In this document: positions 41,854 through 43,207 of the stretch, one piece after another
Layout: each line of letters opens with the position of its first letter
How positions within the stretch are numbered: position 1 is the first letter of the stretch
Assembly: GCF_055900595.2 (NCBI RefSeq)
Contig: NZ_CM148325.1
Reading direction: 5' to 3' (one strand)
DNA: 64,000 nt
Position numbers and translations under genes: made by a program
The notes under the pieces: model-generated
The model's input: only the letters and a program-made list of their open reading frames with translations
Database searches by the model: none
Told to the model about the DNA's origin: nothing

Positions 41854-43207
41854 GTTTCAACTAATTTTATTAGATAATGTGGCCGAGGTAATCGACTCTA
41901 GACATAAAACCCCCAATTACACAGAAACCGGCTACCCAATGGTTCGTGTTGTCGATATTAAAAATGGTGAATTAGATTTAAAGAATACAAAGAGAGTCAC
42001 AAAGGATATATACGAGGACTTTTCAAAAGGACGATCTCCACAGATTGGAGATCTCATTATTTCCCGAGTAGGCTCATATGGGAACATATCCTACGTTTCA
42101 AAAAATGAAAAATTTTGCCTAGGGCAAAACACTGCATTTATTATCCCAAATGAAAAAAATAGCTATCTATATTATGCTTTAATATCTCCTTTTGTACAAC
42201 AACAAATTAACGACATGGCTGTCGGTGCTGTACAAAAAACAATTAGTTTAAAAAGCATTAAAAATTTAAAAATTCCGTACCCAGAGTTAAATATAAGAAA
42301 TATTATTTCTAAAAAATTAAGAGTTATTGATAATAGGATAAGTACTAATGATAAAATAAATCAAACCCTGGAAAAAATGTCCCAAACCCTGTTCAAATCC
42401 TGGTTTGTGGATTTTGATCCGGTGATTGATAACGCTCTGGATGCAGGAAATCCAATCCCGGAAACCCTGCAATCTCGTACCGAATTGCGTCAAAAAGTAC
42501 GTAATAGTACAGATTTTAAACCGCTTCCGGCGGAAATTCGCTCGCTTTTCCCAAGTGAATTTGAAGAAACGGAGTTGGGTTGGGTGCCAAAGGGCTGGAC
42601 GCTGAAGTCTGTAGCAAAATCCATAAATATAAATCCTAGTCTAAAATTACCAAAAAATAAAATCGCAAAGTATGTTGATATGAAATCTTTACCTACTCAA
42701 GGATATTCAATATCAGATATTATTGAAAAGCCATATTCAGGGGGAGCGAAATTCCAAAATAACGATACTTTATTCGCTCGGATAACTCCATGCCTAGAAA
42801 ATGGTAAAACAGGATTTGTTGATTTTTTAGATGAAAAAGAGACTGCGTTTGGCTCTACTGAATTTATAGTGATGCGAGGTACTCCTCAAGTACATTATTT
42901 GTATGTGGCTTGTTTAGCCCGAGAAAGTAATTTCAGGTTACATGCAATACAAAACATGATCGGTTCATCCGGCCGCCAACGGGTACAGAATAGCTGCTTT
43001 GATAGCTTTTATATTGCAATACCAACACCTGCTGTAATGAGCTTATTTTCAGGAAAAGTCAGTAGTTACTTTGATAAAATGTATTTCTGTAATTTGGAAA
43101 ACAAATCCCTGACAGCCCTCCGCGACACCCTGCTCCCGAAACTCATCTCCGGCGAGCTATCCCTGGAAGATCTTCCGGATCTCACCACCGATACAGAAGC
43201 CGCATAA
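41843..43207 (+). CDS. hsdS: Type I R-M specificity subunit, two target-recognition domains
   Basis: ORF trimmed to MGSKFQLILLDNVAEV; two AT-rich TRD blocks separated by a GC-richer conserved spacer; start overlaps hsdM stop. Confidence 0.85.
   Translation: MGSKFQLILLDNVAEVIDSRHKTPNYTETGYPMVRVVDIKNGELDLKNTKRVTKDIYEDFSKGRSPQIGDLIISRVGSYGNISYVSKNEKFCLGQNTAFIIPNEKNSYLYYALISPFVQQQINDMAVGAVQKTISLKSIKNLKIPYPELNIRNIISKKLRVIDNRISTNDKINQTLEKMSQTLFKSWFVDFDPVIDNALDAGNPIPETLQSRTELRQKVRNSTDFKPLPAEIRSLFPSEFEETELGWVPKGWTLKSVAKSININPSLKLPKNKIAKYVDMKSLPTQGYSISDIIEKPYSGGAKFQNNDTLFARITPCLENGKTGFVDFLDEKETAFGSTEFIVMRGTPQVHYLYVACLARESNFRLHAIQNMIGSSGRQRVQNSCFDSFYIAIPTPAVMSLFSGKVSSYFDKMYFCNLENKSLTALRDTLLPKLISGELSLEDLPDLTTDTEAA

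What the first reader, a model, noticed from the sequence alone, without database searches (positions are those of the whole stretch)
41900..43100. Mosaic composition of hsdS: AT-rich target-recognition domains embedded in GC-normal conserved regions
The two TRD-coding segments are visibly much more AT-rich than the central and terminal conserved segments and the flanking hsdM and hsdR, as expected if specificity domains were imported by recombination. The recognition sequence of this allele is therefore likely strain-specific.
Basis: partly seen in the sequence, partly recalled or inferred. Interest (0 to 1): 0.35.

Follow-up and report, generated by a model that had tools for sequence, protein, structure and literature searches.

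The report
Ordinary mosaic Type I specificity gene
This is the DNA-specificity gene (hsdS) of a standard Type I restriction system in an Escherichia genome; its two target-recognition segments really are much more AT-rich than the rest of the gene, but every relative examined, including the textbook EcoKI gene, shows the same pattern, so it is ordinary.

Summary
hsdS (41843-43207) has two AT-rich target-recognition domains (TRDs): TRD1 41849-42355, GC 0.31, GC3 0.25; TRD2 42599-43117, GC 0.35, GC3 0.27. They are separated by a central conserved region (GC 0.45) and followed by a C-terminal conserved tail (GC 0.60). hsdM is at 0.51 and hsdR at 0.46. Unsupervised segmentation places the breaks within 5-8 nt of the homology-defined TRD borders.

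- TRD reassortment is directly visible. TRD1 is 99.8% identical to E. coli TUM10008 and TRD2 is 99.8% identical to KE55, and each of those strains carries a different partner TRD.
- AT-richness does not mark a recent import. All 17 TRD types in 12 E. coli alleles, both TRDs in 48 of 48 species carrying this family, and K-12 EcoKI hsdS show the same mosaic.
- A Citrobacter genome carries a colinear ortholog with both TRDs at 78-85% nucleotide identity, still AT-rich.
- The allele is not strain-specific. The exact protein is recorded on about 280 public contigs, although it is absent from 5,426 complete E. coli genomes.

The system belongs to the Type ID (StySBLI/EcoMII) family in the immigration control region. 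Its recognition sequence could not be predicted.

The parts
39004..40170 (+). Mrr-like Type IV restriction endonuclease gene (388 aa), directly upstream of hsdM
   Evidence: Pfam Mrr_cat E=1.6e-29. PADLOC PDC-S02 and mREase_IV. 99.0% amino-acid identity to the EC958 homolog next to EcoMII.
40234..41853 (+). hsdM, the Type I methyltransferase subunit (539 aa), GC 0.506
   Evidence: Pfam N6_Mtase E=1e-105 plus HsdM_N. 99.1% amino-acid identity to EC958 M.EcoMII.
41843..41853 (+). 11-nt overlap between the hsdS start codon and the hsdM stop codon (ATGGGGAGTAA), the likely site of translational coupling
   Evidence: Read from the sequence. The same -11 nt offset occurs in most of the related loci across phyla. 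Coupling itself is inferred.
41843..43207 (+). hsdS, the specificity subunit (454 aa), GC 0.371
   Evidence: Pfam Methylase_S E=1.2e-17. PADLOC Specificity_I over the full length, E=2.7e-124. The exact protein is in NCBI, e.g. BDI53725.1.
41849..42355 (+). TRD1 (type 'A'), the AT-rich variable cassette, GC 0.312 and GC3 0.254
   Evidence: Borders come from the 12-allele alignment. 99.8% identical to TUM10008 and PI12, and found in only 2 of 5,426 genomes.
42356..42598 (+). Central conserved region (81 aa, INQTLE...VPKGW), GC 0.453. It spaces the two TRDs and serves as recombination substrate.
   Evidence: Conserved in all 12 alleles and found in 859 of 5,426 genomes. The change of nearest relative from TUM10008-like to KE55-like falls at about 42360-42374.
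42599..43117 (+). TRD2 (type 'a'), the AT-rich variable cassette, GC 0.353 and GC3 0.272
   Evidence: 99.8% identical to KE55 and about 98% to IMT5155-type alleles. Present in 48 of 5,426 genomes. Homologs of 56-64% amino-acid identity sit at the TRD2 position in Desulfocapsa, Marinilabilia and Blastopirellula.
43118..43207 (+). C-terminal conserved region (LRDTLLPKLISGELSLEDLPDLTTDTEAA), GC 0.598
   Evidence: Nearly invariant across the 12 alleles.
43216..43235 (+). Terminator-like G+C-rich hairpin just after hsdS
   Evidence: Consensus scan: 7 pairs, 6 of them G-C. Function not tested.
43302..46565 (+). hsdR, the restriction/translocase subunit (1087 aa), GC 0.457; GC falls to about 0.415 after roughly 45260
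   Evidence: Pfam HSDR_N, SWI2_SNF2, T1R_D3-like and T1RH-like_C. 99.4% amino-acid identity to the EC958 EcoMII R subunit. GC break from segmentation. The start was set by homology with annotated E. coli genes.

Best explanation
**What it is.** The region is the specificity gene (hsdS) of a complete Type I restriction-modification system. The gene order is mrr-like, hsdM, hsdS, hsdR, and the system sits in the enterobacterial immigration control region between yjiA and yjiR. By sequence it belongs to the Type ID (StySBLI/EcoMII) family.

**How it works (established knowledge of the family, not tested here).** HsdS has the usual layout of TRD1, central helical region, TRD2 and C-terminal helical region. 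Each TRD should read one half of a bipartite target. The conserved helices should set the spacing and dock two HsdM subunits.

**What is shown here.**
- The two TRD-coding segments are AT-rich cassettes set in a scaffold of normal GC content.
- The cassettes are reassorted between alleles, presumably by homologous recombination in the conserved flanks: the hsdM 3' end, the central region, and the C-terminal region with hsdR.

**What the composition means.**
- The AT-richness is a stable, family-wide property of TRDs. It is not a mark of recent import into this genome.
- This TRD pair is itself old, because a colinear ortholog exists in Citrobacter. It marks a lineage carried by hundreds of Escherichia assemblies.

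**Most likely cause of the AT-richness (inferred, not shown).** Each TRD type lacks homologous partners and is weakly selected for codon usage. It would therefore sit near the AT-biased mutational level. The conserved scaffold recombines freely and tracks host composition.

**Recognition sequence.** It is uncharacterised. By family analogy I expect a bipartite site with the two methylated adenines 6 bp apart.
For: **Identity of the system**
- Pfam and PADLOC hits identify M, S and R subunits.
- The genomic context is the same as the E. coli immigration control region.
- HsdR and HsdM are 99.4% and 99.1% identical to EC958 EcoMII. The EcoMII R subunit is reported as 92% identical to StySBLI R (PMC4659465).
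- A review states that the immigration control region hosts Type IA, IB and ID systems (PMC12707154).

**Mosaic composition**
- Composition, Fisher tests and segmentation all agree.

**Reassortment**
- The 12-allele alignment has 8 TRD1 types and 9 TRD2 types in mixed pairings.
- TRD1 is about 100% identical to TUM10008 and TRD2 to KE55, against flanks of 97-98%.
- The junction lies at 42360-42374.

**Family-wide AT-richness**
- All TRDs in the E. coli panel have GC 0.29-0.38.
- In 48 of 48 species both TRDs have lower GC3 than the central region and than hsdM.
- The slope of TRD GC3 on hsdM GC3 is 0.33-0.35, against 0.72-0.80 for the conserved segments.
- EcoKI hsdS shows the same mosaic.

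**Age of the allele**
- The Citrobacter ortholog (L103) has nucleotide identity of 0.78 for TRD1, 0.82 for the central region and 0.85 for TRD2. hsdM is at 0.87 and hsdR at 0.82.
- Its TRD GC3 is 0.30-0.33 while its hsdM GC3 is 0.76.
- Cross-genus TRD pairs diverge about as much as hsdM does.

**Lineage allele**
- The exact protein is on about 280 contigs and in 517 index blocks.
Against: - Type ID membership rests on a chain through a published identity value. No StySBLI sequence was available, and the defining complementation test cannot be done here.
- The direction of TRD exchange within Escherichia is not resolved. The window allele could be donor or recipient.
- The proposed cause of AT-richness (recombinational isolation plus AT-biased mutation) is inference. 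I did not measure substitution spectra.
- TRD GC3 does follow host GC weakly, which a shared mobile pool with partial amelioration would also produce.
Confidence: 0.85

Rival explanations
1. The two TRDs were recently imported by recombination from an AT-rich donor, their low GC is an unameliorated donor signature, and the resulting specificity is peculiar to this strain.
For: - TRD GC3 is 0.25-0.27, against 0.58 in hsdM.
- TRDs are exchanged within Escherichia at about 100% identity.
- The TRD combination is absent from 5,426 complete E. coli genomes.
Against: - The same mosaic occurs in every allele and in 48 of 48 species, and in EcoKI.
- The whole allele has a Citrobacter ortholog that diverged as much as hsdM and hsdR did, and it is still AT-rich.
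- The exact protein is on about 280 contigs.
- No plasmid-borne TRD is more than 60% identical.
Confidence: 0.1
2. The TRDs are AT-rich because they circulate as a horizontally shared cassette pool among many hosts. They move faster than they can adapt to any one host's composition, and mobile DNA is generally AT-rich.
For: - TRD GC3 depends only weakly on host or hsdM GC3, with a slope of 0.33-0.35.
- The same TRD types occur in several enterobacterial genera.
- TRD2-type homologs occur across phyla.
- Distant TRD homologs are found on plasmids of many phyla.
Against: - Between genera, TRDs of one type are no more similar than hsdM is: 0.80-0.86 against 0.85-0.86, and 0.94-0.96 against 0.93. 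No excess of recent inter-genus transfer is visible.
- The Citrobacter ortholog is colinear and evenly diverged along its length.
Confidence: 0.3
3. The low GC follows from what a TRD must be as a protein, because the DNA-binding fold is rich in Lys, Asn, Ile, Phe and Tyr. Alternatively it reflects selection on the DNA or mRNA itself, such as slow translation to keep HsdS scarce or H-NS silencing.
For: - Residue composition alone lowers the expected GC to 0.42-0.45, against 0.49 for hsdM.
- The pattern is universal across hosts, as a functional constraint would predict.
Against: - Residue composition explains only about a quarter to two-fifths of the deficit.
- It explains none of the synonymous-site deficit: GC3 is 0.25-0.27 against an expected 0.51-0.53.
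- An expression-level explanation does not account for normal codon composition in the conserved parts of the same mRNA.
Confidence: 0.15
4. hsdS is part of a phase-variable or shufflon-type specificity system that switches TRDs with the half-hsdS gene 4 kb downstream.
For: - A second gene with a single TRD lies at 47388-47969.
- A hypervariable (CACAT)n repeat lies between the two modules.
Against: - hsdS and the downstream half-S share no inverted or direct repeats.
- No recombinase gene lies between hsdS and yjiR, and both genes are on the same strand.
- The hsdS protein is identical across all the carrier contigs read.
Confidence: 0.02

Closest known systems
EcoMII of E. coli ST131 EC958 (recognises AAC(N4)CTTT; R subunit reported 92% identical to StySBLI, the Type ID prototype)
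   Same: The locus architecture is identical: yjiA, brnTA, mrr-like, hsdM, hsdS, hsdR. HsdR is 99.4%, HsdM 99.1% and the Mrr-like protein 99.0% identical. The central and C-terminal HsdS regions have the same length.
   Different: Both TRDs are different types: whole-protein HsdS identity is 38.5% and TRD identity about 26%. The recognition sequence must therefore differ and cannot be inferred from EcoMII.
EcoKI hsdS of E. coli K-12 (Type IA prototype)
   Same: It occupies the same chromosomal island, has the same TRD-conserved-TRD-conserved layout, and shows the same compositional mosaic. TRD GC3 is about 0.10-0.37 and C-terminal GC3 about 0.63-0.70. hsdS has GC 0.404 against 0.548 for hsdM.
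   Different: It belongs to a different family. The window's HsdM matches EcoKI HsdM only weakly (72 bits, E=4e-19). The gene order is R-M-S rather than M-S-R, and hsdM and hsdS overlap differently (PMC3510504).
Classical TRD reassortment in Type I systems (StySQ/StySJ hybrids; Gann et al. 1987, cited in PMC12707154 and PMC3874165)
   Same: New specificities arise by recombination in the central conserved region, which pairs TRD1 of one allele with TRD2 of another. That is exactly the pattern seen between the window, TUM10008 and KE55.
   Different: Those cases are Type IA systems in Salmonella. Here it is natural Type ID alleles in Escherichia, and the direction of exchange is unresolved.

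Membership tests
Type I R-M specificity subunit (HsdS) | Two target-recognition domains (Methylase_S fold) separated by a central conserved region and followed by a C-terminal one | tested here: met
   Pfam PF01420 E=1.2e-17. PADLOC Specificity_I over residues 1-454, E=2.7e-124. The 12-allele alignment shows variable-conserved-variable-conserved blocks. PDB HsdS chains 1yf2 and 1ydx match at the TRD level.
Type I R-M specificity subunit (HsdS) | Encoded next to hsdM and hsdR as one system | tested here: met
   hsdM is at 40234-41853, overlapping hsdS by 11 nt. hsdR is at 43302-46565.
Type I R-M specificity subunit (HsdS) | Directs m6A methylation and restriction at a bipartite target sequence | not testable with these tools
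   This needs methylome sequencing or a restriction assay. No methylome paper for a carrier strain was found.
Type ID family (StySBLI, EcoR9I, KpnAI) | HsdM and HsdR closely similar in sequence to family members | tested here: met
   The test is indirect. HsdR is 99.4% identical to the EC958 EcoMII R subunit, which is reported as 92% identical to StySBLI R (PMC4659465). The 90%-identity HsdR cluster includes Salmonella and Klebsiella proteins. No StySBLI sequence was available for direct comparison.
Type ID family (StySBLI, EcoR9I, KpnAI) | Subunit complementation or antibody cross-reaction within the family (the formal definition) | not testable with these tools
   This is an experimental criterion (PMC3874165).
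Type ID family (StySBLI, EcoR9I, KpnAI) | Chromosomal location in the immigration control region, allelic with hsdK | tested here: met
   The locus is flanked by btsT, yjiX and yjiA upstream and yjiR downstream. A review lists Type ID among the systems found in this region.
Type ID family (StySBLI, EcoR9I, KpnAI) | Six base pairs between the two methylated adenines | not testable with these tools
   The value comes from a review table. The central region has the same length (81 aa) as in EcoMII, so the same spacing is expected, but it was not measured.
Type IA family (EcoKI) | HsdM and HsdR closely similar to EcoKI; gene order hsdR-hsdM-hsdS | tested here: not met
   The EcoKI M protein matches at only 72 bits, E=4e-19. 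The gene order here is M-S-R.
Type IC family (EcoR124I) | HsdR and HsdM closely similar to EcoR124I | tested here: not met
   EcoR124 HsdR matches at 88 bits, E=2.5e-24, and only over the motor region. HsdM matches at 135 bits. The review reports no Type IC systems in the immigration control region.
Phase-variable (inverting, multi-hsdS) Type I systems | Inverted repeats shared between hsdS copies, plus a site-specific recombinase | tested here: not met
   hsdS and the downstream half-S share no repeats. No recombinase ORF lies between hsdS and yjiR.

The most novel reading that the evidence does not exclude
The AT-richness of TRDs may be a persistent, family-wide state that is largely uncoupled from host GC, rather than an import scar. 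It was seen in 48 of 48 species across several phyla and in EcoKI, and it was retained in orthologous TRDs after about 15-20% divergence while the adjacent hsdM tracked host GC. If so, hsdS would be a natural within-gene contrast. Segments that recombine (the scaffold) drift to host GC, while recombinationally isolated segments (each TRD type) stay at the AT-biased mutational level. That would make it a compact test case for recombination-associated GC evolution in bacteria, or alternatively for selection keeping specificity cassettes AT-rich.
Probability: 0.35. Interest if true: 0.4.

Novelty: new member of a known kind. Interest (0 to 1): 0.15.

Why it matters
The practical consequence is modest. 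This Escherichia lineage carries a Type ID restriction system with an uncharacterised specificity, which will shape which plasmids and phages can enter it. That matters for anyone transforming or typing these strains.

The more general point is a caution. Low GC in hsdS target-recognition domains should not be read as evidence of recent horizontal acquisition, because it is the normal state of these domains in every host examined.

The within-gene contrast between AT-rich TRDs and a scaffold that tracks host GC could serve as a small natural experiment on what drives GC content in bacteria.

Tried and rejected
1. **Half-site prediction from characterised TRDs.**
   - The PDB sequence search found only distant HsdS chains: 1yf2, 1ydx, 3okg and 5ybb.
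   - The EcoKI and EcoMII TRDs are only 26-27% identical to those in the window.
2. **Primary literature.** Titheradge 2001 (PMC60208) and Sharp 1992 (PMC50228) are not held.
3. **Published methylomes.** One paper search for E. coli SMRT methylomes (terms including APEC and Type I) found nothing that covers a strain sharing these TRDs.
4. **Papers describing TRD-specific GC differences.** None was found in the searchable library.
5. **Protein-database search with TRD1.** The hits were mostly unnamed fragments, with no characterised relative. Its 85%-identical hit did lead to the Citrobacter ortholog.
6. **Plasmid donors.** No plasmid-borne TRD is more than 60% identical.
7. **Shufflon or inversion mechanism.** Rejected, because no shared repeats were found.
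8. **Amino-acid composition as the full explanation.** Rejected on the basis of GC3.
9. **The window allele as a recent recombinant of TUM10008-like and KE55-like parents.** I held this view at first. I dropped it as unproven once the Citrobacter ortholog showed that the TRD1-A plus TRD2-a pairing is old.
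Full report
**1. What is at the coordinates**

ORF listing and Pfam scans show a standard Type I restriction-modification operon on the + strand.
- hsdM is at 40234-41853 (N6_Mtase, E=1e-105).
- hsdS lies in an ORF at 41810-43207.
- hsdR lies in an ORF at 43290-46565 with the expected HSDR_N, SWI2_SNF2 and T1RH-like_C domains.
- An Mrr_cat endonuclease gene (39004-40170) precedes the operon.

The wider context is btsT, yjiX, yjiA and brnT/brnA upstream and yjiR downstream. This is the enterobacterial immigration control region.

The real hsdS start is the ATG at 41843, giving 454 aa. It overlaps the hsdM stop codon by 11 nt (ATGGGGAGTAA). By homology with annotated E. coli genes, hsdR starts at 43302.

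**2.

- hsdS has GC 0.371, against 0.506 for hsdM, 0.457 for hsdR and 0.492 for the whole window.
- I aligned 12 alleles of the family to set segment borders independently of composition.

| Segment | Coordinates | GC | GC3 |
|---|---|---|---|
| TRD1 | 41849-42355 | 0.312 | 0.254 |
| Central conserved region | 42356-42598 | 0.453 | 0.420 |
| TRD2 | 42599-43117 | 0.353 | 0.272 |
| C-terminal conserved region | 43118-43207 | 0.598 | 0.655 |

- Fisher tests: TRDs vs conserved hsdS segments p=3e-7; TRDs vs hsdM+hsdR p=9e-17; conserved hsdS segments vs hsdM+hsdR p=0.53.
- The central region alone vs the TRDs gives p=6e-4.
- A change-point segmentation that knows nothing of the gene puts its best-BIC breaks at 41854 and 43114. 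With more breaks it also finds 42364 and 42604.
- Residue composition lowers the expected GC only to 0.42-0.45. Expected GC3 stays at 0.51-0.53, so most of the deficit lies at synonymous sites.

Caveats:
- The central GC island is too short to pass BIC on this one sequence.
- hsdR drops to about 0.415 after roughly 45260.
- There is practically no N-terminal conserved segment.

**3. Family**

- HsdM and HsdR match EcoKI (Type IA) and EcoR124I (Type IC) chains only distantly.
- The same locus architecture occurs in E. coli ST131 EC958. HsdR, HsdM and the Mrr-like protein there are 99.4%, 99.1% and 99.0% identical to those in the window.
- That EC958 system is EcoMII. It recognises AAC(N4)CTTT, and its R subunit is reported as 92% identical to StySBLI, the Type ID prototype (PMC4659465).
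- Reviews state that the immigration control region hosts Type IA, IB and ID systems (PMC12707154; PMC3874165).
- I therefore file the system as Type ID. This rests on an indirect sequence chain. The formal complementation criterion cannot be tested here.

**4. Recombination of TRDs is directly visible**

- The family occurs in 1,141 of 5,426 complete E. coli genomes. No genome holds 80% or more of this hsdS.
- TRD1 occurs in only 2 genomes, TUM10008 and PI12 (the latter disrupted by IS1), at 99.8% identity.
- TRD2 occurs in 48 genomes. KE55 is at 99.8%, and IMT5155-type alleles at a second chromosomal locus are at about 98%.
- In 100-nt windows the window sequence is about 100% identical to TUM10008 across TRD1 and to KE55 across TRD2. 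The flanking hsdM, hsdR and core genes are only 93-100% identical, typically 97-98%.
- The switch of nearest relative falls at about 42360-42374, at the start of the central conserved region.
- The 12-allele panel has 8 TRD1 types and 9 TRD2 types in mixed pairings. For example, one TRD1 type is paired with three different TRD2 types.
- This is the classical reassortment described for Type I systems (Gann et al. 1987, cited).

**5. AT-richness is not a sign of recent import**

- Every TRD in the E. coli panel is AT-rich: GC 0.29-0.38 and GC3 0.20-0.30. The central region is always 0.45-0.47 and the C-terminus 0.56-0.60.
- A scan of one genome per species with HsdM returned 80 loci. In almost all of them hsdS follows hsdM with the same 11-nt overlap, and hsdS is less GC-rich than hsdM.
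- In the 48 species where the central region could be aligned, both TRDs have lower GC3 than the central region and than hsdM. That is 48 of 48, spanning Gammaproteobacteria, Desulfobacterota, Planctomycetota, Bacteroidota and KSB1.
- TRD GC3 rises with hsdM GC3 at a slope of only 0.33-0.35. The conserved segments rise at 0.72-0.80.
- K-12 EcoKI hsdS, from a different family, has the same profile.
- TRD types are shared between enterobacterial genera with about the same nucleotide divergence as hsdM: 0.80-0.86 against 0.85-0.86, and 0.94-0.96 against 0.93. Yet hsdM GC3 differs between those hosts (0.58 against 0.72-0.76) while TRD GC3 stays near 0.2-0.3.

**6. The allele is old and belongs to a lineage**

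- The closest non-identical TRD1 relative in the protein database (85% identity) lies in assembly GCA_001686385.1. Its flanks are 96.9% identical to Citrobacter sp. On2M.
- The hsdS there is a colinear ortholog of the whole window allele, with both TRD types, interrupted by a 1-nt frameshift.
- Nucleotide identity is 0.78 for TRD1, 0.82 for the central region, 0.85 for TRD2 and 0.83 for the C-terminus. hsdM is at 0.87 and hsdR at 0.82.
- The Citrobacter TRDs have GC3 of 0.30-0.33, next to an hsdM with GC3 of 0.76.
- So the TRD1-A plus TRD2-a pairing predates the Escherichia-Citrobacter divergence of this system. The E. coli strains that carry only one of the two TRDs may be the recombinants, but the direction is unresolved.
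- The exact 454-aa protein is in NCBI, for example BDI53725.1 from Escherichia sp. KS167_9B, labelled MULTISPECIES [Escherichia]. It is recorded on about 280 contigs and in 517 index blocks, always in the same context.
- The window differs from one such assembly (L099, GCA_033349575.1) by 1 nt in 13.4 kb.

**7. Mechanism and its uncertain parts**

- Shown: gene identity, the segment structure, the mosaic, the reassortment, and the family-wide persistence of AT-rich TRDs.
- From established knowledge of the family: each TRD reads one half-site, the helical regions set the spacing and dock two HsdM subunits, and exchange happens by homologous recombination in the conserved flanks.
- Inferred only: why the TRDs stay AT-rich. 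I favour recombinational isolation of each TRD type plus weak codon selection under AT-biased mutation, while the scaffold recombines freely and tracks host GC.
- The rivals are a mobile cassette pool that never ameliorates, and direct selection on the DNA or mRNA. Both remain open.
- Half-sites could not be predicted. By family analogy I expect a bipartite site with the methylated adenines 6 bp apart (table).

**8. Verdict**

I rate the gene an uncharacterised member of a well-known family, with low interest. The family-wide compositional contrast is a small point of possible evolutionary interest.

Noticed in passing
window 46801-46926: A pentanucleotide tandem repeat, (CACAT) in about 25 copies, lies in the AT-rich spacer between hsdR and a downstream methyltransferase module. 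Copy number differs among otherwise near-identical genomes: 22 units in the window and L099, 15 in L100, 25 in L101 and 8 in E. coli MB52. This looks like a hypermutable simple-sequence repeat, and it may tune expression of the downstream module.
   Followed up: partly
window 47222-49231 (small ORF 47222-47391, half-hsdS 47388-47969, methyltransferase 47972-49231): A second, solitary Type I-like module with no hsdR partner, at GC about 0.24-0.38. It comprises a 56-aa ORF, a single-TRD S protein (193 aa) and an N6_Mtase/Eco57I-domain methyltransferase (419 aa). It takes the place of symE, which follows hsdR in the other strains examined. It occurs in only 1 of 5,426 complete E. coli genomes (MB52) but accompanies this hsdS allele in all the carrier contigs read. 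A single-TRD S protein suggests a palindromic target.
   Followed up: partly
window 41843-41853, and loci L019-L098: The hsdS start codon overlaps the hsdM stop codon by exactly 11 nt in most of the roughly 70 related loci examined, from Enterobacteriaceae to Planctomycetota, Bacteroidota and a Bacilli MAG. This conserved junction probably serves translational coupling and also fixes the first residues of HsdS.
   Followed up: partly
locus L004 (E. coli IMT5155, NZ_CP005930.1 2622864-2629126): The same Type ID family occurs at a second chromosomal site in many avian-pathogenic E. coli, between pgtBA and lutC/ykgG. There it carries the same TRD2 type as the window, so TRDs are shared between paralogous loci as well as between strains.
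   Followed up: no
window 43216-43235: A G+C-rich terminator-like hairpin (GCCCCTG...CAGGGGC followed by TTTCTGG) lies just after hsdS and about 65 nt before hsdR. It hints that hsdMS and hsdR are separate transcription units.
   Followed up: no
window 45260-46565: The 3' third of hsdR is distinctly less GC-rich (about 0.415) than its 5' two-thirds (about 0.49).
   Followed up: no
loci L002, L015, L016, L103: hsdS of this family is often inactivated. IS1 insertions occur in PI12 and SWYHX138.33gt, an IS3 element lies immediately upstream of an N-terminally truncated hsdS in XYEH3934, and a 1-nt frameshift occurs in the Citrobacter ortholog.
   Followed up: no
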